64,000 bases of DNA. Origin: Trypanosoma brucei. Its lineage: Eukaryota. The stretch covers positions 320,001 to 384,000 of the forward strand of contig CM000207.1 in the NCBI GenBank assembly GCA_000002445.1, read 5' to 3'. The notes beneath the pieces are model-generated. The model was not told the origin of the DNA, made no database searches, and worked only from the letters and a program-made list of their open reading frames with translations. Position numbers and translations under genes: made by a program. Shown here one piece after another: positions 16,101-41,868 of the stretch (positions are counted from its first letter, which is position 1; each line of letters starts with the position of its first letter).

Positions 16101-17471
16101 TTAGTTCCTGTACGCCGTTTCCATCTTGATCTTAGGATCGACTTCTAGTTGCTGGGCACTATATGACCAGTTAGCCAACCAACGCTGAAACCACACCAAA
16201 CTTAGCGAGGGAATCACACTCAACATTCCGTTACGCAGCCACGTATGTGAGAGTGAAGTGAAGCGACGAGCCCTCCGCGACTGACGAATATACCCCTCAA
16301 TGCGGTCACGCCGCACTGTTTCGAATTGCCTAAATGCGTACTCAAACCCTGCGTCATTGCATAAAGGTACGTCAACCAGAGAGGTTGATAACAAAGCGGC
16401 GTCCTCCACACAGAGAGAGGCATCTTGTGCCAAGAAGGAAGGCAATGAGGCATGAGCTGCCTCGCCAATAAGAACAGCACGTTTGTTGTACCACCGTGGC
16501 ATCACAGGTACTTCCACAAGCTCGGAAGGTATCGCCAATTCTGCACGAGAAAGTGTATTCGTTATATCACCACCAAAGGATGCGAATTCCCGCCGCAACA
16601 AACTGCGGTAAACCTCTCGTAATTCAATGGGGTCCATCTCTTTGCTCACATCAACAATTTCTGTTGGAGGGTCATACAGCGTGGCTGAGAAGGCAAAGTG
16701 TCTCCTTCCATCCCACTGAAGAGGAATGCAAGACAATACGCGCCTCTTCCCCCAAACCTCAGCGGGAGACTCACCTGTAGGCCACGGCTCGTCGCCAAGT
16801 TCCACATACCCGTCCACTTGTGTCATCCCCAGTGTTCGACAGCTCGTGCCAATGTACTCATCTGGGTAAAGTAACTTACGAACTGTACTGTGTCCACCGT
16901 CGGCTCCAACAACCACGTCACCCCACTCGGTTTGCCCATTATCAAGTACTACGTGTACGCCGCCCTTAATGCCATCATGTGGTCTCAGATCCACTACATT
17001 GGCATTGAAGCGTATTTCCTGCACGTATTTGCGTAAAATACTTCGAAGATAATCCGCACTAAACGTTGTACGTAGTGGTACACAGCCAAGATCCTGTTTT
17101 AGTTCCTCAGCTAAGCGACGTGATACGGTTGAATCGCTGTTAGCTGGTGGGGCCGTACTAAGTGGCACACAGTCCTCTTGACCAAGCGCCTGTAGTTGCA
17201 CCACCCTATTTCGTACCCTCAAAAGCCATTGCAAGCGCTCGTTCTGTATACCGAAGTGGCTCTCGGAAATTGCATCACCAGTGTAGAATCCGTCATCCAA
17301 CTCGAATGCTTTAAAGCAACTGAGTGCGTTAGCATAAAGTGTATAAGGTGGCTGGTACGTCGCCCGTAAAAACGGCGACTGCTCAAGCACTACACAATCG
17401 ATATTGATACGGCGCAGGAAAGCTGCGAGCGATAAACCAGATAAACCTGCACCAACGATGACAACACGCAT
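16101..17471 (-). CDS. FAD-dependent monooxygenase of the PHBH/UbiH/COQ6/salicylate-hydroxylase fold.
   Basis: An N-terminal Rossmann motif VVIVGAGLSGLSLAAFL (GxGxxG) and the FAD/substrate motif LIGEAAHASLPSFLAQDASLCVEDAALL (GDAAH...DA..L type). The track start at 17477 is GTG; the ATG is at 17471 (MRVVIVGAG). Confidence 0.85.
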   Translation of the reverse strand: MRVVIVGAGLSGLSLAAFLRRINIDCVVLEQSPFLRATYQPPYTLYANALSCFKAFELDDGFYTGDAISESHFGIQNERLQWLLRVRNRVVQLQALGQEDCVPLSTAPPANSDSTVSRRLAEELKQDLGCVPLRTTFSADYLRSILRKYVQEIRFNANVVDLRPHDGIKGGVHVVLDNGQTEWGDVVVGADGGHSTVRKLLYPDEYIGTSCRTLGMTQVDGYVELGDEPWPTGESPAEVWGKRRVLSCIPLQWDGRRHFAFSATLYDPPTEIVDVSKEMDPIELREVYRSLLRREFASFGGDITNTLSRAELAIPSELVEVPVMPRWYNKRAVLIGEAAHASLPSFLAQDASLCVEDAALLSTSLVDVPLCNDAGFEYAFRQFETVRRDRIEGYIRQSRRARRFTSLSHTWLRNGMLSVIPSLSLVWFQRWLANWSYSAQQLEVDPKIKMETAYRN

Positions 17472-17773
17472 AGCCACCCTCTTCCGTCAAAACTTAGAGA
17501 TGAACAGCAGTATAGTGAGGAAGAGAGGAGGTGCGTAAGCAGTGCATACATTAATTTTCATTATTGGGTAGAATCAAAAGTGCCACCACAGCTCCACAGA
17601 TGACCAGAATGTGCTTAATATAACCCCTTCACATAGGGAGAATATACCTACCACAATCTCAGTTGAGGTGTCACTCTTTAAAGTAAATGGCGCAGAAGTT
17701 ACCGCAGGGGGCACAAGGTTCTCAACAACCGGATGCAGATTTCTCCAGCGCCCTCTTCCTCACGTACAGTTCA

Positions 17774-22651: not shown

Positions 22652-25105
22652 TCACGCCTTTACAGAACCATGAAAGAATTGGGTCGAAAAAAGAGCAAAA
22701 AAGAAACCAAAAAGGCGATTATGCCGCTTATCTTCACCAATAGGTTCTCTAGAATCCGCTGCAACATCACTACTGAGTGTTGACCGAGGGCGTGTGAGAT
22801 GTTGCCACACCCACCTTACAGGTTTGAATTCCCGCTCAATTACTAATATCCACTGCCAAATAACAAAAGCAAACACGGGATACATGGGCCACAGTAACTT
22901 TGCCTCAGCAGTGTAGATGGCCTCCATGCCTTCACCAATAATGTAGCTAACAAACTTACCGAGTTGAACGAGCCCAGCGATGCAGGCCACAGATAAAGCA
23001 TCTGCCGCACACCACGACGCGGTAACAGAACAATTCGGGTAAGTAATGGCAAACAGAAATGGAACCAACACCGTAGTAAGAAAACAAACTGTCAAGATGG
23101 TAAACGACCCGGATGTGAGTTCAAACATTGCCATGTCACGAGAGTCAGGTTGCACCACCGAGGCCAAGCCACCCACGTTGTATCGCAAACAAGGTATAAA
23201 CCACATAAGCAACACACACACAGCAGTGGCAGCGCCATTTAACCCACGTAATACAAATCGCATCAAGTCACACTTTTTACCCTTTGATGAATTCGTATCA
23301 AGTTCATCATCTCTTTCTGCTTCAACCACATCATTCTCACTGTGTGATGGTTCCGACGGACTGCACTTCTGATCCAGTCGTACGGAAGTATTACGACGCC
23401 ATAGGTATAAAGCATAGTTTCCGACGAAAATTGTGAGAATTGTAGCGAAGAGGAAACAGTAGAATCCAGGTCGAATGTGCACCTCCGCTATCCCCGATAA
23501 CTCCAAGCCCCCGACCATCACAACCATCGCAAACGTATCAATGAAAGAAAACTTGCCTGTACAGTCAAGTAACCTCACGAATGCATGTTGAGGTTTTCGA
23601 AAACCAAGAGTGCATACAAGGATGCATAACAGTTTCACATATGGATAAACTCCGCTAAAAAAGAAAAAACCGATGGCTAGGTCAACATGTCCAGCTTTGA
23701 AAATTTTGCTGGTGATTTCCATCAAAGAGAGTTGCAACATATTAAATTCACCTCCCACCACAACTGCGGCAGCTGTCGTGCTGTTGGACCACACAAGTAA
23801 GAATGTAGCACTTAGAGTAAGCAACAACAACAGACCATCCTCAGTAAGTGCTCGGCATTGCGAAATCGGTGAACCATCAGCCAGTGTTGCGGGATCCTTT
23901 CGATGTCGGTAGATGCTCCAGCAAATACCCAACGCGAATGCAACAACCGACATACAAAGTGCGGTAAGCCAAAGCGATAGGGGAGGTACATCACGTACTT
24001 CAGCAGCATGAAGCAAGGGAAGGGGTCGTCGCTCCTCCCCAGCAGTACAGTTCGATGCAAGCACAGAGTTAATAAGGCTCTCCACATGTGGAAGCAACAG
24101 ATCTTCCATATTGTTGCCAGCCACCTTGTTTATATCACCAAGACCGACCGTTCTCAAATTCTGCAACAACACAGCATCGGAACACGGTATGGTACAATTT
24201 AGTTTCGCTTCATCACTGCAGCGAACATCCGTCACCACAACATCCATAGACATGGTAAAACTACTCGGAATGTCAACTACTGCATTAGTGACATTCACGG
24301 CAGGAATCATTTGACTAATATTGGCCACAAGACCATCCAGTGAAAGAGCTTTTAGTGCGTCTTCCACAGAAGCCAGTAAAGAGGATATCGCAGGAGATAA
24401 GGCACCATCCTCATACAGAGTCATGTTCACACCGTTCGGCAACGTGAAGTTCGTACGAGTAGCAGTGTCTTCGTGCATTTTCGCACCGAGACGAACACCA
24501 AAAACAACAGGAATATTGTTTACAACATTCGTCACACCCCGGAAAACTGGAGTAGTGTTCAAGACAACAGCGCCATCAACAGGGGGAGGAGCTGGTTTCT
24601 CCGGCTTCACTTCACTTATCACAAATTTATTCCCCAGTAACGGAAGGTGCGCATTGCATAATAGTGTTTCGGATTTTTCTTCAATTATGTACTGCGCAAT
24701 AGGTTTGAACATCTCAAAAAGTTCAAATTTAGGAACCATATTAATGTCATTCACCTTCACATTAAGGCTGCAGCGGTCCACAATGAAGTTTGTAGTAAAA
24801 CAAAGGTCGTCTAACTCCCTTCCGACGGTGATCTCGTTGAGGTGCACAGCCAAGTCAACAGTAATATTGGTTGAAGCAGCCCCCAATTGAATGCCGGCCG
24901 AACACACAACATTGGAAGGTTGGTCTATTTTCACAGAAAGTTGCGAAGAGTTGAGTGTACCACTACCTTCACCGATGCTGACGCGTGAACATGAGGCGTT
25001 ATCCAACTTCACCGTCAAGAAGGATGTCGAAAGACCGGGAAATTCGAGACCCGTCAATAATACCGAGCTCCACCACACGGCAAACAACGGACATGCAGCT
25101 GACAT
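22652..25105 (-). CDS. Polytopic membrane protein (~817 aa). A signal-peptide-like N-terminus and a large lumenal or extracellular N-terminal domain are followed by ~10 hydrophobic segments.
   Basis: The track start at 25156 is GTG; the first ATG at 25105 gives MSAACPLFAVWWSSVLLTG, which is signal-like. Many N-x-S/T sites lie in the first ~400 aa. The second half has multiple 20-aa hydrophobic stretches (e.g. LWLTALCMSVVAFALGICWSIY, LRGLNGAATAVCVLLMWFIPCL). Confidence 0.75.
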   Translation of the reverse strand: MSAACPLFAVWWSSVLLTGLEFPGLSTSFLTVKLDNASCSRVSIGEGSGTLNSSQLSVKIDQPSNVVCSAGIQLGAASTNITVDLAVHLNEITVGRELDDLCFTTNFIVDRCSLNVKVNDINMVPKFELFEMFKPIAQYIIEEKSETLLCNAHLPLLGNKFVISEVKPEKPAPPPVDGAVVLNTTPVFRGVTNVVNNIPVVFGVRLGAKMHEDTATRTNFTLPNGVNMTLYEDGALSPAISSLLASVEDALKALSLDGLVANISQMIPAVNVTNAVVDIPSSFTMSMDVVVTDVRCSDEAKLNCTIPCSDAVLLQNLRTVGLGDINKVAGNNMEDLLLPHVESLINSVLASNCTAGEERRPLPLLHAAEVRDVPPLSLWLTALCMSVVAFALGICWSIYRHRKDPATLADGSPISQCRALTEDGLLLLLTLSATFLLVWSNSTTAAAVVVGGEFNMLQLSLMEITSKIFKAGHVDLAIGFFFFSGVYPYVKLLCILVCTLGFRKPQHAFVRLLDCTGKFSFIDTFAMVVMVGGLELSGIAEVHIRPGFYCFLFATILTIFVGNYALYLWRRNTSVRLDQKCSPSEPSHSENDVVEAERDDELDTNSSKGKKCDLMRFVLRGLNGAATAVCVLLMWFIPCLRYNVGGLASVVQPDSRDMAMFELTSGSFTILTVCFLTTVLVPFLFAITYPNCSVTASWCAADALSVACIAGLVQLGKFVSYIIGEGMEAIYTAEAKLLWPMYPVFAFVIWQWILVIEREFKPVRWVWQHLTRPRSTLSSDVAADSREPIGEDKRHNRLFGFFFALFSTQFFHGSVKA

Positions 25106-25558
25106 TATTGGACAGGAGGTAATCGAGTCAATCCCTTTCCGTGTGTTTACGGACACAGCACAGCCAGATCAAGTGTCTGAATGGCTCTTAACCGAGTGAC
25201 CACACTACTCTCCTTTCGGTTTAAGTGTTCTTCTATAAACGCACAGTTACCTACAGTTACCTAGAGCTCCACTGTAAAACTATTGAACAAAACAAGAAAA
25301 TTGGACAACGCCACACATAAGTGAAGAGAGGTAGGAACCATATAATACAGAAACATCAGAAAGACATTTGAACAGGCATAGGGAATGGGGATATGAAGAA
25401 TACACATATGAACAAAGTTACAAAGGTATTCAGGCACTTAATTCGGTACGATAAGGGAACAAAAGGGTTATTCAATCCTCTGTGCAAGACAGCACCTATT
25501 CGTTACACCTATTACACACTGCACACCGGTGCTTTATAGATTACTGCAATTATTCAGT

Positions 25559-26500: not shown

Positions 26501-27898
26501 TCACTTGACAATCTTCTGCGATACCCACGAAACAACCTGCTCCACATCAACATGAGGTTTTAGCGACAATAATACTTTGAATAGACCGTTCTCAAGCAAC
26601 TCTTTATCATGCCTCCGCTTGGCAATAAGAACATGCACAAGCAAAAGGGTTTCGAGATCTCCATCAAGCAACTGCCGTAGTTTCGCAACCCATGCTTTGT
26701 CTCCCACACCCTTTTCTGCTACCTGAAGCAATTGTTCCAGCAAATTGGAACCCAGTTTCTCACTGTCAACTGATGCTGCAGCAACCCTTGGTGTAGCTGG
26801 AGTGGCACGTAAAGATTGCCTGCACTTTGGAGAGACATTATGTTTAGGTGAGCCGCTGTCAGGGCGAGGTTGGGGTCGACGTACAGGTGTGACAGGCGAA
26901 ATCCGGCGTATTGGAGACTCCATAATCGCACGCAGTGGAGAAACCTTAGGGGCTTCGCGACACACAGGTATGCCTTTCTCCCGCACGTATGACGTCAGAC
27001 GTGATGCGAATCCCACGAGCAAATCATACGCAGTAGGCCGGCCCCTCTCGTTCTTGCAAAGGCATGCCTCCACAGCGCGTACGAGACACGTTTCGTATCG
27101 CCCTCGCGCTATCTGCCTAAGACAAGGCATAGGGTCCATGTTCAGGATAGCATGGAAAGACTGTTGCTCCGTGTAGTGCTTCTTCCAGAAAGCACGTTGC
27201 CGTGTTAGGAGTTCAAAAAAGGTTGCACCAGCGGAAAATATGTCCGTCTTGCTGCTGTATGCCTCCCCGGCAACAATCTCTGGTGAGCAGTAACAGGGAG
27301 TTCCAACACGCGTCTGTGCAAGTTCCGTCGTCTGCTGCAGCGGACGTGCAAGCCCATAGTCCCCGACAAGGGCCTTCGACACCGACCCCTCCTTGTTGTC
27401 ATTACGAACAAGAAGCAGATTGGCAGGTTTGATGTCGCGGTGAATTATGTGCTGCGCGTGACTGTGGTTCAGTGCTGAGAGTATCTGCAACATTATCATC
27501 ATAGCGAGTTCGTTAGGGACAAACTCCTCACGAAGGGAGTACTCACGAATAAGCCCGTGTAGGTCACCACCATCACAATGTGTCATTGCCAAGCAAACAC
27601 TCCCACAGTGTTCCCCCACACCGCTTTCCACCCAAGCACCTACGTACCGCACAATGAAGGGATGATTCAGCGACCGAATTGCATCAATTTCTTTCAATAT
27701 CATCGCTGCACCGTCAGCTGGAAGTATACCACGTCGCATCACCTTCACAACGAAGCGCTGCGGATATTGAAATGCACTTGCTGTACCAGTTGTACATACA
27801 GGCCTCGCAAGAAAGACGCTTCCGTTTGCACCAGATCCGAGCAGTTCAGCGAGTACAACCTCCCGTCCCAATAAGCACCGTTCGCACACGCCATCCAT
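26501..27898 (-). CDS. Ser/Thr protein kinase, NEK-like.
   Basis: Kinase subdomains are present: the Gly loop LGSGANGSVF, the Lys in FVVKVM, the catalytic loop HRDIKPANLLL, DYG (a DFG variant) in LVGDYGLARP, and GTPCYCSPE. The track start is GTG; the ATG is at 27898 (MDGVCERC...). The ~190-aa C-terminal tail is non-catalytic. Confidence 0.85.
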   Translation of the reverse strand: MDGVCERCLLGREVVLAELLGSGANGSVFLARPVCTTGTASAFQYPQRFVVKVMRRGILPADGAAMILKEIDAIRSLNHPFIVRYVGAWVESGVGEHCGSVCLAMTHCDGGDLHGLIREYSLREEFVPNELAMMIMLQILSALNHSHAQHIIHRDIKPANLLLVRNDNKEGSVSKALVGDYGLARPLQQTTELAQTRVGTPCYCSPEIVAGEAYSSKTDIFSAGATFFELLTRQRAFWKKHYTEQQSFHAILNMDPMPCLRQIARGRYETCLVRAVEACLCKNERGRPTAYDLLVGFASRLTSYVREKGIPVCREAPKVSPLRAIMESPIRRISPVTPVRRPQPRPDSGSPKHNVSPKCRQSLRATPATPRVAAASVDSEKLGSNLLEQLLQVAEKGVGDKAWVAKLRQLLDGDLETLLLVHVLIAKRRHDKELLENGLFKVLLSLKPHVDVEQVVSWVSQKIVK

Positions 27899-28861
27899 CG
27901 CTATAGACACGACGAAACTAAGAAGCTGCGTTACCGGCTGCACACGCTACAGATACAAATACACATACACATACACACGCACACGCACAAGTGCATACGG
28001 AAAATAACAGAGACGAAAAGAAGAAGTTGCACAGTAGGTAATAGCACGCTTTAGCACGTGTTTAAATGCTTAGAGGATAACCGCAAAGAGAGAAAATGCA
28101 TATGGACAGGTGACCAGAAACGCAAAGTCATTGTAATAGCCAAACTCCACAGTGTCACACTAAATTTCCTATAAATTCTTCATAATCCAGCATCCCACAG
28201 TCAACGTGTGTATCGGTCACAAACTCACAGCTGAGGGTTGCAAGAGTGGTTGGTTAAATCCACCAAAAAATATGTGTAAAGATATGGCGGTTTTCTCTTA
28301 ATGAAGAATAGTATATATTTCTCCTGTTTTTTTACTACAATGTTACATCGGACGTACCCGCGATGTGGTGGCTCTGCTTTAATTTTTTTGTGATGTCACA
28401 CTCATACACATAATCTTTCTTTTTTTTTTCTTAGTTGAGGAACAAGAGTTAATTAAGCTTCTATGTGTGTTAGATTTGTCGGTGAATTTTCATACAATTA
28501 TGAGTTTGCTGATTTTTTTTTTCTATGGTTTTCAGCTATGTTTGCCTTCGTGATGATCAATTGGTGGTGGTATGAATATCCAACTCCTTCTTGCTTCTTT
28601 TCCATCCATATTTGCGGTGTATTGTTGTTTTCGTGAAATGCATTAGTACATCCTTTCTCAGTTGCATTTTGATTGGAGAAGGCTGCCACCACCTTTCTTT
28701 CTTTTTTTTTTTCGCGTCCACCAGGTGTAACCGTGAAAATCACCCAACTGCGAAAAGGAGGGGGTTGGCGACTGAAAGCATGACGAAACTGCGCAGTTTA
28801 GATCTCGTTTTTGTTGACTCTATTCTTTTCGTTAGTTGCTATGGCGAAAGGGTTAGGGGAG

Positions 28862-30355
28862 TTAGTAGTTGTTTCCATTTTCCTCTTTTGTAAGTTTGCC
28901 TCCATTCATAGCAATCCATCCTTCACAGCATTCAGATCCACAGCAACATTGAAATGGTGGTGTTGTTTCATCCCTAAATAGACGGTAGTCCATTGTAAGT
29001 TCTTCGCCTCGGGCAATATCACGGGTGGCGTAGAGATTCAAAGACCGATTTGGTCCAAAGTTCATGTTGGGAACACAGGAGTGACTAAATGTGCGCCAAT
29101 TTGTTGGCTCATTATCCCAAAGGGCATAGTAATGACCATCTCCACCAAGTGGCCACGCTTTTTGTGCGAACTGATCATACTCCTCTTTTCCCCTCGTCGC
29201 CTTTACATGAGGTTTTGTGTAAAGACGAACCGACTGCCCCTCTGCTTCAAAAATAGGGGATCCTGCTGATATGTCACGCGTAGCGCACATCCGATACCCC
29301 TGTGCAGGGTTATATACGCAGCGGAACAGAGGTTGCATGCGCTCATTCCGTCTAAGGGCCTCCTTTATCTGAAGCAGAGTAAATTCCCTTTGATTGAAAC
29401 CTGGTGTCAAACGCAAGATCCAATCAGCTGATCCCTCTTGCCCGGGTGGATACATGACGCCGCAGTTAGGGTTAATCTCCAAGAATACAACATCATGTGT
29501 CGACCGGTCGATGCGCACATCCACCCTCCCATATCCTACACCTCCCATCATATGCATAAACGATGTTCGTGCTGTGGAAAGGACTTGTGACAACGCAGGG
29601 TCATCTTCCGGCATAAGACGCCACTCCATTCCCTCATATGTTTCCCACTTCAAATGAAAATGTTTGAAATCTTCACCCTCAGGAAATTGCACCATTACAG
29701 GAGGGAAAACACGAATGCCATCAGGTTGCGTGCTGTCTGCACACACAAGTATCGTCGCCTCATCGCCAACAACGAATTCTTCAACGAGAGCAATTTGATA
29801 CTGTTCAATAAAGCGAGTTACACGACTGTGCAAGCTATCCATGTCATAAACTTTGCACGACTTATCCATTCCAACACTGCTGTAACCGGAAACGTGTTTG
29901 ATTATCAGTGGGAATGAAAGCACCGAACATAATTCACGTATATTGTCACCAGCTTCTAAAACAGCATGTTTGGCCGTTTTTATCCTAAAGTAGTGAGCAA
30001 TCTGCTTCATCTCCGGCTTAGATAATTCGTAGTACTTGGAAACTGCACCAGTAAAGGGTACGTGAAAACTCTCGAGGGCTTGCACGACGTCAACACCCGC
30101 CTTGTCCTCGTCTAAAGCTCCGTCACATTGGTTATAAAAGACATCATACGCGCCTGATTTCACAAGCTGACGTATTTGCCGATATGTCGTTGCCTTTTTA
30201 ATGAACGCAAGATCAAAGACAACTTCGTTTTGGTCTTCTTTTGTGAAGTAATGCTGAGGGGTCTGCACAAGTTCTCCCTCGTATGTTTTTAGCTCGCTGT
30301 CAGATCCCTCGTAGGAACAAACCAAAACACAAACCCGAGTGGGTTTGGCCGGCAT
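28862..30355 (-). CDS. Fusion protein with an N-terminal ATP-grasp (D-Ala-D-Ala-ligase / RimK-like) domain and a C-terminal SET methyltransferase domain with a post-SET Cys cluster.
   Basis: ATG confirmed. ATP-grasp motifs: IIKHVSGYSSVGMDKSCKV, ALVEEFVVGDEATILVC, and GYGRVDVRIDRSTHDVVFLEINPNCGV (compare Ddl GWGRIDV...LLEANTSPG). SET motifs: FSHSCVPN (NHSCxPN), EELTMDY (ELxxDY) and the post-SET CCCGSECC. Confidence 0.85.
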   Translation of the reverse strand: MPAKPTRVCVLVCSYEGSDSELKTYEGELVQTPQHYFTKEDQNEVVFDLAFIKKATTYRQIRQLVKSGAYDVFYNQCDGALDEDKAGVDVVQALESFHVPFTGAVSKYYELSKPEMKQIAHYFRIKTAKHAVLEAGDNIRELCSVLSFPLIIKHVSGYSSVGMDKSCKVYDMDSLHSRVTRFIEQYQIALVEEFVVGDEATILVCADSTQPDGIRVFPPVMVQFPEGEDFKHFHLKWETYEGMEWRLMPEDDPALSQVLSTARTSFMHMMGGVGYGRVDVRIDRSTHDVVFLEINPNCGVMYPPGQEGSADWILRLTPGFNQREFTLLQIKEALRRNERMQPLFRCVYNPAQGYRMCATRDISAGSPIFEAEGQSVRLYTKPHVKATRGKEEYDQFAQKAWPLGGDGHYYALWDNEPTNWRTFSHSCVPNMNFGPNRSLNLYATRDIARGEELTMDYRLFRDETTPPFQCCCGSECCEGWIAMNGGKLTKEENGNNY

Positions 30356-30780
30356 CGCTATCGGTCGTGAAAACTACAACTTTTCTATTTATACGTCTGC
30401 TACAACCACCTGCCCCCTATTTCCCATCTACTCCATATCAAATCAGTGACAACAAAAATGAAGAGTAGTTCATTTTATTTTTATTTTATTTTTACATACC
30501 ATCAAACAGATATGTGAAGCACAGAAGCGAAAATATTGAAATCCAACAGGAATTAATACCACCAAAGCAACGAGTTACAAATCTCCCCGCACTGCTACCA
30601 ACCTTTCGCAATGAGTAGGAGATCAGATGGGAGAACAAAGGGGGCTAAGAACATGAACAATAACATTAAAAATAACATTAAAAGTAACAGCAACAGCAGA
30701 CACCACGAAAAGTTTGTGTAGGCGAAGGCGGAACATTCAGCACCGTCATTCCTTTGCACCTCCTCCTGCACTATTTTTTC

Positions 30781-30822
30781 TTTTTTTTGGGGGGGGAGAA
30801 GAGGAGTCCCCCCAAAAAAAAA
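30781..30822. repeat. Perfect hairpin / inverted repeat T8G8-(11 nt)-C6A9, with a 14-bp stem.
   Basis: ttttttttgggggggg agaagaggagt cccccc aaaaaaaaa is read directly from the sequence. It lies in the intergenic spacer upstream of the ATP-grasp/SET gene. Confidence 0.8.
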
Positions 30823-30881
30823 TCAAAATAATTAATACAGTGCAGTGAATCCAACTGTCATAAGGAACAGAAATCAAAATA

Positions 30882-35477: not shown

Positions 35478-36773
35478 TCAAGTAACTATATGATGCATCG
35501 CACAAATCATATCCCCCAACTTCTCCCGCAGTACCACAGAAGAATCATCCTCCGAAAGATTTTTTTCTACTTCCACCTTTTCTGCCTTTGCATCACCACT
35601 ACTTCCGCCGTGTGAAGCCACACACCATTTTTCAACTGCCTCGTGTATTGCCAATGGTTGCATACGACTAATTGCATTAAAATGATTTGGAGTGCAGGAG
35701 TCATGGGAGGTCGCCATATATTGACGAATATTCATCACGTCCCCATCAATTGCTACCACGGCAGCCATATTTCCATACGTTCCACAGTAATTCGATGCGG
35801 AAAAAACACAAACCACAGCTGGAACTCCCTTCGGGGTGTGACGATACAGTTTGTAACCTCCCGGCTGCGTCTCGTGGCCACGTATGACTGTGCAAAGATT
35901 ATTCGCCTCCAGAAACCGACAAACTGCCTCATAACTGTAGTTGTATGAGCAACCACGTTTGGTATTGAAAACAAACAACTCTTCAGAGGGAGTTGCACAG
36001 TCGGTGTCGTCTCCAAACATGGGATCAGACCAGAGCAAATCGCACATGGGACCCGTCGACGGTGTTTCCCTGAAACGGTTAACAGTGTCAATTTCTCCAA
36101 GATAAGTTAACAATGGCGATAAACCGCCGTGCACACAGAAAAACCTATCATTTACAACACATGAGAGTGGAAAGCAGTCAAACGCTGCCATAATCTCTTC
36201 GTACACCATTGACGAATACTTGCTCTCAATCTCCTGCTTGAAGTTGAAACACGACGTTAGTTGTCGTGATTCGTGATTGCCACGTAGTAGTATGAAGGAA
36301 CGAGGGTACAGTAGCTTAAACGACATGCAGAGGAGTACAATTTCTGCACTAAAATCCCCGCGGTCCACGTAGTCTCCAAGAAAAACATATTGCTGCACGC
36401 TGGGATGACCATTAACTTCTAACAATGTCAGTAAGTCATGAAACTGCCCGTGAAGATCCCCACACACGACAGCAGATCCCTTTAATCGTACAACATTTGG
36501 CTCCTCTTTCATGATTAATGCACAGCGGTGGACAATGTTCAATGCATCCTCTACATGAAGTCGCCATCCTCTCCCAAAATGAACTTTAATATTATCTGCA
36601 AGCGGGGCGCCATCATTATCAAATACCAAATGGTGCGGCAACACGAGAGTCGGAAGTATCTGAGGATTACTGCCGGGAGATTCATCTGCATGAGATTTTT
36701 TCCAAACATATTCCCGTTCCTTCAAACCATCACGCCCACGTGTTAGCTCATGGTGTGAAGCACCACTCGACAT
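35478..36773 (-). CDS. PPP-family Ser/Thr protein phosphatase, calcineurin A (PP2B catalytic subunit)-like.
   Basis: Motifs GDLHGQ, GDYVDRG and LRGNHE are present. A long collinear match to the PP2B catalytic core runs FKQE..KYS....FDC.PL...F.CVHGGLSP...RF.E.P..GPMCDLLWSDP...RGCSY.YSY.AVC.FL..NNL..IRGHE...GY..YR...FSA.NY...Y.N.AAV....VMNIRQ. The C-terminus is short, with no obvious calmodulin-binding or autoinhibitory segment. Confidence 0.9.
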   Translation of the reverse strand: MSSGASHHELTRGRDGLKEREYVWKKSHADESPGSNPQILPTLVLPHHLVFDNDGAPLADNIKVHFGRGWRLHVEDALNIVHRCALIMKEEPNVVRLKGSAVVCGDLHGQFHDLLTLLEVNGHPSVQQYVFLGDYVDRGDFSAEIVLLCMSFKLLYPRSFILLRGNHESRQLTSCFNFKQEIESKYSSMVYEEIMAAFDCFPLSCVVNDRFFCVHGGLSPLLTYLGEIDTVNRFRETPSTGPMCDLLWSDPMFGDDTDCATPSEELFVFNTKRGCSYNYSYEAVCRFLEANNLCTVIRGHETQPGGYKLYRHTPKGVPAVVCVFSASNYCGTYGNMAAVVAIDGDVMNIRQYMATSHDSCTPNHFNAISRMQPLAIHEAVEKWCVASHGGSSGDAKAEKVEVEKNLSEDDSSVVLREKLGDMICAMHHIVT

Positions 36774-40345: not shown

Positions 40346-41812
40346 TTAGTCCCAGACAACAGACTTCAAGCGGTTCATAAATCCCACTCGACCAAAAGTG
40401 GAACTACCTTTGCGCAGCGCAAGTCCCCTATTTTCCTCATCACTTACCGTTTCAACCTCTATCATATCCCAATGATCACTTAATGGTTCGACATAAACCC
40501 ACTCCTTTACTTCCCTTCGCTCAGTTTCCGTTTGCTTGTGCATATGACGTTGCACAATTTCTACAATAAGGGGAGCCTTCGCTTGTATAAAAGGATGCTC
40601 ACGTATCACCGCAACAGTGGCACGTTCAAATGAGTTTGTTTTCACTAATGACTCCACAAGCGACTTGGCATCATCCGATACATTGGCCCAATGCGGACCG
40701 ACGCAGCGGATGCCTTTCAGCATATTTTGGTAAAGAGAACTAAAGCATCGCGTAGCCACAGGCATATGACCACACAACAAAACATATGCTACAACACCTA
40801 AGCTGTACATATCCGCAAGATGCATCGTCTCTCCCAACGCCTCATACACACGGCGACGTTCCACGACAGCGCGTATATTCTCTGGAGAAGTGTAACCTGC
40901 GGTTCCACAAGGTACAAAAAGTTGTGTTTCGCACTGTTTCACATACTCCGCAAGGCCAAAGTCGATGATCATCACCCTTTTGAAGTCGTGCGAAAGAACG
41001 ATGTTTTCAAGCTTTATATCACGATGCACTATTCCTTTCTTGTGGTAAAGGTAGTCAAGACCTTCTGCCACCTGCAGGACAACATTTGCCACAAGAACTT
41101 CTACGTCGTATTTATATTCCTTAGCTAACCTCCATGCTTGCATGAGCGAACCGCCATCACCTGCTTCCATAACAATAACAAGGTGATGTGGTGTCTGCAA
41201 TACCTCCAATAGTTTTGCAACATTATGATGATCCACATCTTGCATTATTTCCAACTCTGTTACAATTTTCTTCCACGAACGATAGGTCACAACCGATGCT
41301 TTAGTTATTACTTTAAGTGCCACACGCCTTCTACAGGGATAACTCCGGTCTTCGCATTTATACACAGAGCCAAACCCACCTTTACCAATCATAGCTCCCT
41401 CAAAGAATGTTGGGAAGCGGTCTGTTATACTTTCATAATAAACATAATCTCCAACATTGAATTCAGAGAGGGATGTGTAACATGAATGCATGAGTGCGTT
41501 AATGCTGCGGCTGTCGAGAAATGACATAATGAGACGCGCCACGCTTCCATCACGCTTCCCCGTACGTAAGTTACGCAAACTTCTAAACACAGCGGGAAAC
41601 TTGCAGGAGTTGCACCGCCGTAAGCGTCGCCCACCATATGTAGCAGTGCATGGGGCACAATTGTCACAAAATATCCGTCCACACCACTGGCAGTGTTGTT
41701 TACTGACGAGTAGTGAAAACTTCTTGCGGCACAGGCGGTTCTCACAGGCATCTGTTGAGCACCAGTCGCGTCGCTGCTCACCGGGAATTACTAATTCATG
41801 CTCCCCGCGCAT
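40346..41812 (-). CDS. Protein kinase with an N-terminal FYVE-like zinc finger.
   Basis: The track start at 41836 is TTG; the ATG is at 41812 (MRGEHELVI...). The N-terminus WCSTDACENRLCRKKFSLLVSKQHCQWCGRIFCDNCAP is a FYVE-type Cys arrangement that lacks the canonical R(R/K)HHCR basic patch. The kinase core has HRDIKLENIVL, IIDFGLAEY and GTAGYTSPE. Confidence 0.85.
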   Translation of the reverse strand: MRGEHELVIPGEQRRDWCSTDACENRLCRKKFSLLVSKQHCQWCGRIFCDNCAPCTATYGGRRLRRCNSCKFPAVFRSLRNLRTGKRDGSVARLIMSFLDSRSINALMHSCYTSLSEFNVGDYVYYESITDRFPTFFEGAMIGKGGFGSVYKCEDRSYPCRRRVALKVITKASVVTYRSWKKIVTELEIMQDVDHHNVAKLLEVLQTPHHLVIVMEAGDGGSLMQAWRLAKEYKYDVEVLVANVVLQVAEGLDYLYHKKGIVHRDIKLENIVLSHDFKRVMIIDFGLAEYVKQCETQLFVPCGTAGYTSPENIRAVVERRRVYEALGETMHLADMYSLGVVAYVLLCGHMPVATRCFSSLYQNMLKGIRCVGPHWANVSDDAKSLVESLVKTNSFERATVAVIREHPFIQAKAPLIVEIVQRHMHKQTETERREVKEWVYVEPLSDHWDMIEVETVSDEENRGLALRKGSSTFGRVGFMNRLKSVVWD

Positions 41813-41832
41813 GACTGCACAACTTAACACAC

Positions 41833-41868
<36 letters not shown>

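What the first reader, a model, noticed from the sequence alone, without database searches (positions are those of the whole stretch)
28862..30355. ATP-grasp ligase domain fused to a SET methyltransferase domain
The N-terminal ~330 aa carry the three hallmark ATP-grasp segments, including GYGRVDVRIDRSTHDVVFLEINPNCGV (a Ddl/RimK-type nucleotide-binding loop). The C-terminal ~130 aa carry canonical SET motifs (SHSCVPN, EELTMDY) and a post-SET CCCGSECC cluster. A carboxylate-amine/thiol ligase fused to a lysine methyltransferase fold is not an architecture I know from characterised enzymes. It implies either a ligase that recognises a methylated substrate, sequential modification of one protein target, or a SET domain repurposed as a binding module.
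Basis: partly seen in the sequence, partly recalled or inferred. Interest (0 to 1): 0.7.

Follow-up and report, generated by a model that had tools for sequence, protein, structure and literature searches.

The report
Trypanosome SET25: ligase–methyltransferase fusion enzyme
This is a real, single 497-residue Trypanosoma brucei protein (already catalogued as SET25) that joins a D-Ala-D-Ala-ligase-like ATP-dependent ligase to a SET methyltransferase; the fusion is conserved from soil bacteria to trypanosomes, both halves look catalytically active, and its biochemical job has never been determined.

Summary
Window 28862–30355 (minus strand) is one uninterrupted 497-aa ORF. It has a Ddl-type ATP-grasp domain (PF07478, E=4.6e-12) followed by a SET plus post-SET domain (PF00856, E=2.7e-13). 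It is T. brucei Tb927.9.1510, known as SET25, and databases already name it "D-ala D-ala ligase C-terminus/SET domain containing protein". The architecture is therefore not new, but no function has been published. The fusion occurs in all kinetoplastids, in other protists and in many bacteria (201 clusters at E≤1e-30), so it is not an artefact. ATP, Mg2+ and catalytic residues of the ligase are invariant. The SAM-site His, the channel Tyr and the Zn cysteines of the SET domain are invariant or nearly so. The D-Ala-specific residues of true Ddl are replaced, so it is not a D-Ala-D-Ala ligase. The closest solved relative of the SET half is BurB, which methylates free methionine, narrowly ahead of MLL-type histone methyltransferases. 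Published data show cytoplasmic localisation, no chromatin signal and no stable partners. My best reading, held with moderate confidence, is a self-contained bifunctional enzyme that ligates and methylates an amino-acid-derived small molecule. Dual modification of a cytoplasmic protein remains a serious rival. The TREU927 gene model (382 aa) is N-terminally truncated.

The parts
28862..30355 (-). Complete CDS of T. brucei SET25 / Tb927.9.1510 (497 aa plus stop codon at 28862-28864)
   Evidence: ORF list. It is 100% identical over 382 aa to Q38FZ5/XP_803440.1, and identical 497-aa entries exist (SCU68485.1, RHW67323.1).
30011..30355 (-). ATP-grasp N-terminal (substrate-binding) subdomain, aa 1-115. 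It is missing from the TREU927/DAL972 382-aa gene models.
   Evidence: The AF2 model is confident here and Foldseek aligns ~345 columns to whole Ddl chains. It carries family-invariant L11, C77 and T102, and near-invariant K54, D71, N75 and G79. It is 83-85% identical among Trypanosoma species, the best conserved segment.
30008..30010 (-). Met116 codon, used as the start in the TREU927 and DAL972 reference annotations
   Evidence: BLASTP of the window ORF against P0122 aligns query residue 116 to subject residue 1. The sequence read shows the ATG at 30010-30008.
29396..30010 (-). ATP-grasp central and C-terminal (catalytic) subdomains, aa 116-320. Includes K153, S160, E192, E199, the omega-loop F230-K231...K236-W237, R277, D279, R281, E293, N295 and the S309-A310-D311 loop.
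   Evidence: Pfam PF07478. Mapping to E. coli DdlB gives K144, E180, E187, K215, R255, D257, E270 and N272, all invariant in 66 sequences. PDB phmmer and profile hits are to Ddl/VanA.
29456..29536 (-). Motif GYGRVDVRIDRSTHDVVFLEINPNCGV (aa 274-300): catalytic Arg plus the Mg2+-binding D, E and N
   Evidence: Aligned to Ddl GWGRIDxxxD...LLExN. R277, D279, E293 and N295 are invariant.
29327..29395 (-). Long connecting helix (aa ~321-343) joining the ligase to the SET domain
   Evidence: DSSP on the AF2 model shows helix 322-340 with pLDDT >93. The pTM of 0.90 implies a fixed inter-domain arrangement.
28952..29326 (-). SET domain (aa 344-468). Includes G353-Y354, E372, the helical SET-I insert with A400-W401-P402, W413 and W420, SHSCVPN (424-430) and EELTMDY (451-457).
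28910..28951 (-). Post-SET zinc cluster (aa 469-482; C470-x-C472-x4-C477, with C427 as the fourth ligand)
   Evidence: C470, C472 and C477 are invariant in 66 sequences. The segment aligns to the post-SET of BurB and MLL1.
28865..28909 (-). Poorly conserved, predicted disordered C-terminal tail (aa 483-497)
   Evidence: pLDDT is below 50 for aa 486-497 and there is no conservation.
30356..30720 (-). Probable 5' UTR with polypyrimidine tracts followed by AG dinucleotides (candidate trans-splice acceptor region upstream of Met1). This is inference only.
   Evidence: Sequence read. No RNA data were available.

Best explanation
The ORF encodes one polypeptide, T. brucei SET25, that is a self-contained bifunctional enzyme. 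The N-terminal 340 aa are a catalytically competent ATP-grasp carboxylate-amine ligase of the Ddl/VanA structural clade. By analogy with that clade it would activate a carboxylate as an acyl-phosphate using ATP/Mg2+ and have an amine attack it. Its substrate pocket is not that of a D-Ala-D-Ala ligase. The C-terminal 150 aa are a catalytically competent SAM-dependent SET/post-SET methyltransferase. The two activities are coupled on the same substrate, so that one domain's product is the other's substrate. I think the substrate is most likely a cytoplasmic amino-acid-derived small molecule: ligation to an amide or dipeptide, plus N- or S-methylation. I do not think it is a histone. What is shown: a single ORF, both folds, conserved catalytic residues in both halves, conservation of the fusion from bacteria to kinetoplastids, and non-Ddl specificity residues. 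What comes from the literature: cytoplasmic localisation, no ChIP signal and no co-purifying partners. What is inferred: coupling of the two reactions, the small-molecule nature of the substrate, and the order of steps. The substrate's identity is unknown.
Confidence: 0.45

Rival explanations
1. Dual protein-modifying enzyme. The SET domain methylates a lysine of a non-histone, cytoplasmic protein, and the ATP-grasp domain ligates an amino acid to a carboxylate, or to the same lysine region, of that protein. This would be functionally analogous to what was once proposed for TTLL12, or to RimK/TTL-type tailing.
Against: The ligase half belongs to the Ddl/VanA small-molecule clade, not the RimK, LysX or TTL protein-modifying clades. 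No co-purifying protein was found. In bacteria no candidate substrate gene is conserved next to it. BurB shows that compact SET/post-SET domains can take free amino acids.
Confidence: 0.3
2. One half is a pseudo-enzyme or binding module, and only the other half is catalytic.
For: T. brucei has Ser424 where the family consensus (74%) has the Asn of the NHSC SAM-binding motif. The second Gly of the N-terminal GxG motif is Arg355. Several relatives have lost or degraded the SET domain (P0059, P0065, P0072, P0095), and stand-alone ligases exist. The ligase can therefore work without SET.
Against: All ATP/Mg2+ and catalytic ligase residues are invariant. SET H425, the Zn cysteines and E372 are invariant across bacteria, protists and kinetoplastids, and Y457 is 86% conserved. 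BurB itself has Leu-His-Ser-Cys (no Asn) and is active. Both halves are conserved among trypanosomes (ligase 74-85%, SET 54-63% identity).
Confidence: 0.1
3. A chromatin writer: a histone lysine methyltransferase, as its listing among 'putative histone methyltransferases' implies, with the ligase domain as an accessory.
For: It is listed among the 29 SET-domain putative HMTs of T. brucei. The YFP signal was scored as nuclear and cytoplasmic in bloodstream forms. It has SET similarity to MLL/SET1.
Against: There was no specific ChIP-seq signal, no chromatin or other partners in IP-MS, and TrypTag shows cytoplasmic localisation. Orthologous fusions are widespread in bacteria that lack histones.
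Confidence: 0.05
4. Annotation or assembly artefact: two adjacent genes joined by a sequencing error, or an mRNA that is processed into two products.
For: The TREU927 and DAL972 reference models are shorter (382 aa), which shows that annotators disagreed about this locus. No RNA-seq data were available to me.
Against: The shorter model still contains both domains, because it only trims the N-terminus. The ORF is continuous. The same fusion occurs in hundreds of independent sequences, including bacteria, where no splicing is involved. The AF2 model packs the two halves into one body (pTM 0.90).
Confidence: 0.02

Closest known systems
D-alanine--D-alanine ligase (Ddl/VanA family, EC 6.3.2.4; e.g. 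E. coli DdlB, PDB 2DLN/1IOV/4C5A)
   Same: It has the same three-subdomain ATP-grasp fold (Foldseek E~1e-18, TM ~0.8). ATP-binding, Mg2+-binding and transition-state residues are identical (K144, E180, E187, K215, R255, D257, E270 and N272 equivalents). An omega-loop with the catalytic Lys is present. The expected chemistry is therefore the same: an acyl-phosphate intermediate attacked by an amine.
   Different: Sequence identity is only 18-21%. Curated Ddl models score 56-70 bits against cut-offs of 243-246. The D-Ala1 triad E15/S150/Y216 is S18/S159/W237, and His63 is replaced by an invariant Cys77 region. The S281/L282 D-Ala2 loop is replaced by a longer loop with an invariant Ser-Ala-Asp. 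It is fused to a SET domain and occurs in organisms without peptidoglycan.
BurB / MSMT, the SET-domain methionine S-methyltransferase of the DMSP/malleicyprol pathway (PDB 9L4T, 9L4V; PMC12542666)
   Different: Identity is only 26% over 117 aligned residues, and the N-terminal half of the domain is not detectably similar by sequence. BurB is a stand-alone 172-aa tetramer encoded in a biosynthetic cluster (BurI/D/E). Here the SET is fused to a ligase with no conserved neighbours. T. brucei has Thr465 where BurB and the family consensus have Met. Nothing shows that the substrate here is methionine.
MLL/SET1-type histone H3K4 methyltransferase SET domains (e.g. KMT2A, PDB 2W5Y/5F5E)
   Different: There are no WDR5/RbBP5/ASH2L-type partners, no chromatin association and a cytoplasmic location. 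The SET-I insert is distinctive (AWP...W...W, nearly invariant in this family). Bacterial orthologues exist. It is fused to a ligase.
TTLL12 (SET-like + tubulin-tyrosine-ligase-like protein; PMC3520985)
   Same: It is the only studied protein I found that combines a SET-type and an ATP-grasp-type domain in one chain. It is widely conserved in eukaryotes, including trypanosomes.
   Different: The domain order is reversed (SET-like N-terminal, TTL C-terminal). Its ligase is TTL-type and lacks 2 of 6 ATP/Mg2+ motifs. Its SET-like domain is SETD3/4/6-like and lacks a key Asn, and no HMTase activity was detected in vitro; per its abstract it catalyses neither histone methylation nor the tubulin modification. 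Here both domains keep their catalytic residues and belong to different subfamilies, so this is an independent fusion.
Bifunctional small-peptide synthases that fuse an ATP-grasp ligase to a second tailoring or ligating module (e.g. GshF; Ngg of N-acetylglutaminylglutamine amide synthesis). Recalled from general knowledge, not tested here.
   Same: The concept is the same: one polypeptide carries an ATP-grasp amide-bond former plus a second enzyme acting on the same small metabolite. Relatives with two ligase modules (P0071, P0219, P0232) resemble that logic.
   Different: The partner domains differ (GCL or GNAT rather than SET), there is no sequence relationship beyond the ATP-grasp superfamily, and the product here is unknown.

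Membership tests
ATP-grasp superfamily (carboxylate-amine/thiol ligases) | Three-subdomain ATP-grasp fold | tested here: met
   AF2 pLDDT 93. Foldseek hits Ddl structures over ~345 columns with E~1e-18 and target TM 0.72-0.82.
ATP-grasp superfamily (carboxylate-amine/thiol ligases) | Conserved ATP-binding Lys/Glu residues, Mg2+-binding Asp/Glu/Asn and catalytic Arg | tested here: met
   K153, E192, E199, K236, R277, D279, E293 and N295 align to DdlB K144, E180, E187, K215, R255, D257, E270 and N272. All are invariant in 66 sequences.
D-alanine--D-alanine ligase (Ddl, EC 6.3.2.4) | Score above the curated family cut-offs (TIGR01205, NF002378) | tested here: not met
   55.8 bits against 245.65, and 70.4 bits against 243.
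D-alanine--D-alanine ligase (Ddl, EC 6.3.2.4) | D-Ala-binding residues: the Glu15-Ser150-Tyr216 triad, His63 and the Ser281/Leu282 loop | tested here: not met
   Replaced by S18, S159 (67% conserved), W237 (86%), the invariant C77 region, and an enlarged loop with invariant S309-A310-D311. The DdlB sequence was recalled from memory but passed 15 of 15 position checks.
D-alanine--D-alanine ligase (Ddl, EC 6.3.2.4) | D-Ala-D-Ala synthesis for peptidoglycan | not testable with these tools
   No assay was possible. Trypanosomes have no peptidoglycan (established knowledge), which makes this role implausible.
SET-domain (class V) SAM-dependent methyltransferases | Pfam SET model above the gathering threshold, and a SET fold | tested here: met
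SET-domain (class V) SAM-dependent methyltransferases | (N/R)HSCxPN motif: the SAM-contacting His and the Zn-ligand Cys | tested here: met
   SHSCVPN at aa 424-430. H425 is invariant and C427 is present in 65/66. Position 424 is Ser in T. brucei against Asn in 74% of the family, and BurB has Leu there and is active.
SET-domain (class V) SAM-dependent methyltransferases | ELxxDY motif with the substrate-channel Tyr | tested here: met
   EELTMDY at aa 451-457. T454 and D456 are >=90% conserved. Y457 is present in 57/66 and Phe in 6/66.
SET-domain (class V) SAM-dependent methyltransferases | Post-SET CxCx4C zinc cluster | tested here: met
   C470, C472 and C477 are invariant.
SET-domain (class V) SAM-dependent methyltransferases | N-terminal GxG SAM-binding motif | tested here: inconclusive
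   T. brucei has G353-Y354-R355. The first Gly is 77% conserved. The third position is Gly in only 21/66, mostly bacterial members.
SET-domain (class V) SAM-dependent methyltransferases | Methyl transfer from SAM | not testable with these tools
   This needs an enzyme assay.
Histone lysine methyltransferase / chromatin writer | Association with chromatin or with chromatin-factor partners | tested here: not met
   This was not my own experiment. Published data read here report no specific ChIP-seq signal, IP-MS that enriched only SET25 itself, and a cytoplasmic TrypTag signal. Caveat: the N-terminal tag was probably placed at Met116.
Histone lysine methyltransferase / chromatin writer | Methylation of a histone lysine | not tested
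   I found no assay in the literature.
BurB/MSMT methionine S-methyltransferase | Orthology-level similarity over the whole ~170-aa protein | tested here: not met
   Sequence similarity is confined to the C-terminal ~60 residues, and the structural alignment gives 26% identity over 117 residues.
BurB/MSMT methionine S-methyltransferase | Stand-alone enzyme in a gene cluster with the SMM-processing enzymes (BurI/BurD/BurE homologues) | tested here: not met
   It is fused to a ligase. No neighbour family was shared by more than 10 of 80 bacterial loci.
BurB/MSMT methionine S-methyltransferase | S-methylation of free L-methionine | not testable with these tools
   This needs an assay. BurB binds Met through main-chain atoms, so sequence alone cannot decide.
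TTLL12 | N-terminal SETD3/4/6-like SET-like domain followed by a C-terminal TTL-type domain | tested here: not met
   The order is ligase then SET. The ligase matches PF07478 and gave no TTL hit at E<=1. The SET is the canonical post-SET type.

The most novel reading that the evidence does not exclude
The ATP-grasp/SET cassette is a two-step biosynthetic machine for a so far unrecognised methylated amide or dipeptide metabolite, for example an onium-type (betaine- or sulfonium-like) solute or signalling molecule. It would be made in the cytoplasm of all kinetoplastids and in diverse soil and saline bacteria. This would be the second known case, after BurB, of a SET domain working on a free small molecule, and the first in a eukaryote. 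It would also remove 'SET25' from the list of trypanosome chromatin writers.
Probability: 0.35. Interest if true: 0.7.

Novelty: already known. Interest (0 to 1): 0.4.

Why it matters
The architecture itself is already recorded, both in database product names and as SET25 in the 2021 T. brucei chromatin-factor survey, so the finding is a rediscovery. What remains open is the function. The family is conserved in every kinetoplastid examined, including the human pathogens T. brucei, T. cruzi and Leishmania, and it appears absent from mammals (no metazoan appeared among the named hits). It keeps two intact active sites, and no published work addresses what it does. If it makes a methylated small molecule, this would extend SET-domain chemistry beyond protein lysines in eukaryotes. 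It would also reveal an unknown parasite metabolite and pathway, and a possible parasite-specific target. If instead it doubly modifies a cytoplasmic protein, it would be the first catalytically active counterpart of the enigmatic TTLL12 design. There is also a practical point. The reference gene model for Tb927.9.1510 lacks 115 conserved N-terminal residues, so tagging and expression constructs built on that model probably truncate the ligase.

Tried and rejected
(1) I analysed the gene neighbourhoods of 80 bacterial loci by ORF calling and all-against-all BLASTP clustering. No conserved partner emerged: the best neighbour family occurs in 10 of 80 loci, and the stand-alone ligase loci are equally uninformative. 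One individual locus (L001) showed only unrelated genes. The look-up of P0115 found no contig.

(2) NCBIfam gave no curated family, only sub-threshold Ddl models.

(4) The AFDB fold library was unavailable, so I obtained no list of named organisms for the full architecture. Model coordinates cannot be read, so I could not measure the geometry between the two active sites or check whether the SET peptide groove is occluded.

(5) In the literature, I found no paper on Tb927.9.1510 beyond the survey, and nothing on ATP-grasp plus SET other than TTLL12. The Iyer et al. 2009 amidoligase review, which might mention this fusion, is not held.

(6) Large relatives were examined for informative extra domains. 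P0135 (6,220 aa) looks like a merged or read-through gene call and was discarded. P0126 and similar proteins are repeats of the same domains. P0160, P0202 and P0094, which apparently run SET then ligase, may be fragments of tandem arrays, so I did not use them as evidence.

(7) My first DdlB mapping, made with mafft --keeplength, mis-numbered residues and was redone. The alignment of the loop after NPNCG is ambiguous (D311 matches either H280 or S281), so I claim only that the loop is replaced.

(8) I considered the idea that conserved Trp/Phe/Tyr and Asp residues in the ligase pocket form a cage for a methyl-ammonium substrate. I did not pursue it, because it cannot be tested without coordinates.
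Full report
**Observation.** Window 28862–30355 holds a single uninterrupted ORF on the minus strand: ATG start, 497 aa. GYGRVDVRIDRSTHDVVFLEINPNCGV is aa 274–300, SHSCVPN is aa 424–430, EELTMDY is aa 451–457 and CCCGSECC is aa 470–477. Pfam finds both domains above its curated cut-offs in this one chain: Dala_Dala_lig_C (PF07478, aa 130–299, E=4.6e-12) and SET (PF00856, aa 353–457, E=2.7e-13). An AlphaFold2 model built on a 66-sequence alignment is very confident (pLDDT 93.3, pTM 0.90). The high pTM for a two-domain chain implies a fixed arrangement of the halves, which are joined by a long helix (aa 322–340).

**Identity.**
- The protein is 100% identical to Trypanosoma brucei-group entries.
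- It is Tb927.9.1510, UniProt Q38FZ5, named SET25 in the survey of T. brucei chromatin factors by Staneva et al. (PMC8559703).
- Other entries in the same 90% cluster, and orthologues in Leishmania, Novymonas and T. rangeli, already carry names such as "D-ala D-ala ligase C-terminus/SET domain containing protein" or "methyltransferase/D-alanine--D-alanine ligase".
- The survey's domain legend includes "D-ala D-ala ligase".

The architecture is therefore already on record. I found no functional study.

**Gene model.** The TREU927 and DAL972 reference proteins are 382 aa and start at Met116 of this ORF. The missing 115 residues form the N-terminal subdomain of the ATP-grasp fold. They contain family-invariant residues (L11, C77, T102) and are the best conserved part of the protein among trypanosomes, at 83–85% identity. 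Polypyrimidine tracts followed by AG lie upstream of Met1. I conclude that the 497-aa product is the real one. By inference, N-terminal tags designed on the reference model truncate the ligase.

**Distribution.**
- The two-domain fusion is found in all trypanosomatids sampled, in bodonids, in other protists (for example Spongospora) and in many bacteria. The bacterial phyla include Gemmatimonadota, Actinomycetota, Acidobacteriota (Bryobacterales), Rhodothermota/Balneolaceae, Spirochaetota and Chloroflexota, at 36–38% identity.
- An exhaustive HMMER scan of 1.84 billion cluster representatives finds 201 clusters at E≤1e-30.
- A closely related stand-alone ligase (~330 aa, ~60% identical to the bacterial fusion's N-half) occurs in other bacteria.
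- Across 80 bacterial loci no neighbouring gene is conserved, so the unit appears self-sufficient and operon context gives no clue.
- Variants include extra ATP-grasp modules (P0071, P0147, P0219, P0232), fusions of the ligase to a clostripain-family peptidase (P0221, P0222), and members that have lost SET.

**Ligase half.**
- It superposes on D-Ala-D-Ala ligases across all three subdomains (Foldseek E~1e-18, TM ~0.8, 18–21% identity).
- With the family profile, every ATP-grasp structure among the 60 best PDB hits is a Ddl/VanA-type small-molecule ligase.
- No RimK or TTL model matched the T. brucei protein.
- Mapped on E. coli DdlB, the ATP, Mg2+ and catalytic residues are invariant in all 66 sequences. 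The DdlB sequence was recalled from memory and verified at 15 of 15 landmark positions.

| DdlB residue | This protein |
|---|---|
| K144 | K153 |
| E180 | E192 |
| E187 | E199 |
| K215 | K236 |
| R255 | R277 |
| D257 | D279 |
| E270 | E293 |
| N272 | N295 |

- The residues that make Ddl specific for D-alanine are not kept. E15, S150 and Y216 become S18, S159 and W237. The His63 region carries an invariant Cys77. The Ser281/Leu282 loop is replaced by a longer loop with an invariant Ser-Ala-Asp.
- Curated Ddl models score far below threshold, at 56–70 bits against about 245.

It is therefore an active-looking ATP-grasp ligase of the Ddl clade, but not a D-Ala-D-Ala ligase.

**SET half.**
- H425 of the (N)HSCxPN motif is invariant, as are the post-SET cysteines C470, C472 and C477 and residue E372.
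- C427 is present in 65/66. Y457 of ELTMDY is present in 57/66, with Phe in 6. In BurB the equivalent Y124F mutant keeps more than 60% activity.
- T. brucei has Ser at the Asn position of NHSC. BurB has Leu there and is active.

The domain is a canonical, apparently active SET plus post-SET methyltransferase. Its substrate class cannot be read from the fold.

**Published data on SET25.** The survey found no specific ChIP-seq signal. Affinity purification and mass spectrometry enriched only the bait. Localisation was "nuclear and cytoplasmic" for YFP in bloodstream forms and cytoplasmic for both TrypTag tags. These data argue against a chromatin role, with the caveat about the tag position noted above.

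**Interpretation.** Both halves are under purifying selection, with intact catalytic machinery, from bacteria to trypanosomes. The fusion is ancient and is self-contained in bacterial genomes. The best-supported explanation is a bifunctional enzyme whose two reactions act on the same substrate. I favour a small amino-acid-derived substrate, at about 0.45, for these reasons:
- The ligase belongs to the small-molecule Ddl/VanA clade.
- The nearest solved SET relative acts on a free amino acid.
- Bacterial hosts lack histones.
- The trypanosome protein is cytoplasmic and has no detected partners.
- Relatives that stack additional ligase modules look like stepwise assembly systems.

The main rival, at about 0.3, is dual modification of a cytoplasmic protein. 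It is supported by the whole-domain similarity to lysine methyltransferases and by the peptidase fusions. A pseudo-enzyme half (about 0.1), a histone writer (about 0.05) and an artefact (about 0.02) are disfavoured. About 0.08 remains for mechanisms not listed here. The substrates, the product and the order of the two steps remain unknown.

**Comparison and novelty.** The protein is not a member of the Ddl family, because the specificity residues and curated thresholds both fail. It is not a member of BurB/MSMT, because there is no whole-length similarity and no gene cluster. It is not TTLL12, which has the reverse domain order, different subfamilies for both domains, and no detectable activity. 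It works like an ATP-grasp ligase coupled to a SET methyltransferase. Because the gene and its two-domain annotation are already in databases and in a published catalogue, I rate the finding as already known. The function is an open and experimentally tractable question, and I score interest at 0.4. The most novel reading not excluded is a conserved biosynthetic cassette for an unknown methylated metabolite. That would be the first small-molecule SET enzyme in a eukaryote. I give it a probability of about 0.35.

Noticed in passing
window 30008-30355 (minus strand): The TREU927 and DAL972 reference gene models for Tb927.9.1510 start at Met116 and omit 115 N-terminal residues. Those residues are the best conserved part of the protein among trypanosomes (83-85% identity) and form the ligase N-subdomain. 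Constructs or tags built on that model would truncate the enzyme.
   Followed up: partly
window 22652-25156 (minus strand): An 834-aa ORF carries a PqiA (paraquat-inducible protein A) domain (E=5e-13). PqiA is best known as a bacterial inner-membrane component of an MCE-type lipid transport system, which makes it an unusual domain to see in a trypanosome gene.
   Followed up: no
window 1-64000: All 22 ORFs of at least 200 aa lie on the minus strand and GC skew is negative throughout, as expected for a single trypanosomatid polycistronic transcription unit. The neighbours of SET25 are functionally unrelated: a protein kinase at 26501-27943, a metallophosphatase at 35478-36773, a FYVE+kinase at 40346-41836 and an FAD-monooxygenase-like ORF at 16101-17477.
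   Followed up: partly
P0221, P0222 (relatives found): Two relatives fuse the same ATP-grasp ligase (43-46% identical to the T. brucei ligase half) to a Peptidase_C11 (clostripain-family) domain instead of SET. This hints that at least some branches of the ligase family deal with peptide bonds next to basic residues.
   Followed up: partly
P0071, P0147, P0219, P0232 (relatives): These relatives have additional ATP-grasp modules, placed either before or after the ligase-SET unit. Examples are P0071 (ligase-ligase-SET, 844 aa) and P0219 (ligase-SET-ATP-grasp_3, 953 aa).
   Followed up: partly
P0074, P0083, P0093 (Leptomonas pyrrhocoris and relatives): This is a second, divergent paralogue group in some trypanosomatids (named record: Leptomonas pyrrhocoris), about 36-38% identical. 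It has long Ser/Ala/basic-rich N- and C-terminal extensions and a shortened SET-I region that lacks the AWP...W...W signature. It may explain the 'other' (not 1:1:1:1) orthology flag for SET25 in the published table.
   Followed up: no
L055-L081 (24 bacterial loci): Stand-alone ~320-340-aa versions of the ligase occur in Acidobacteriota, Betaproteobacteria, Verrucomicrobiota, Planctomycetota and others. They are about 60% identical to the N-half of the bacterial fusion P0099 and again have no conserved neighbours.
   Followed up: partly
P0135 (6,220 aa; relative found): This giant predicted protein has the ligase-SET unit at residues 5639-6108. It contains long acidic repeats and stretches that look like translated non-coding sequence, so it is probably several genes merged by a gene caller. 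It should not be used as evidence for a megasynthase context.
   Followed up: partly
window ~30775-30825: The intergenic region upstream of SET25 contains an odd block of consecutive homopolymers (T-run, G-run, then C8 followed by A8, read on the minus strand). It lies next to U-rich tracts that could serve trans-splicing or polyadenylation.
   Followed up: no
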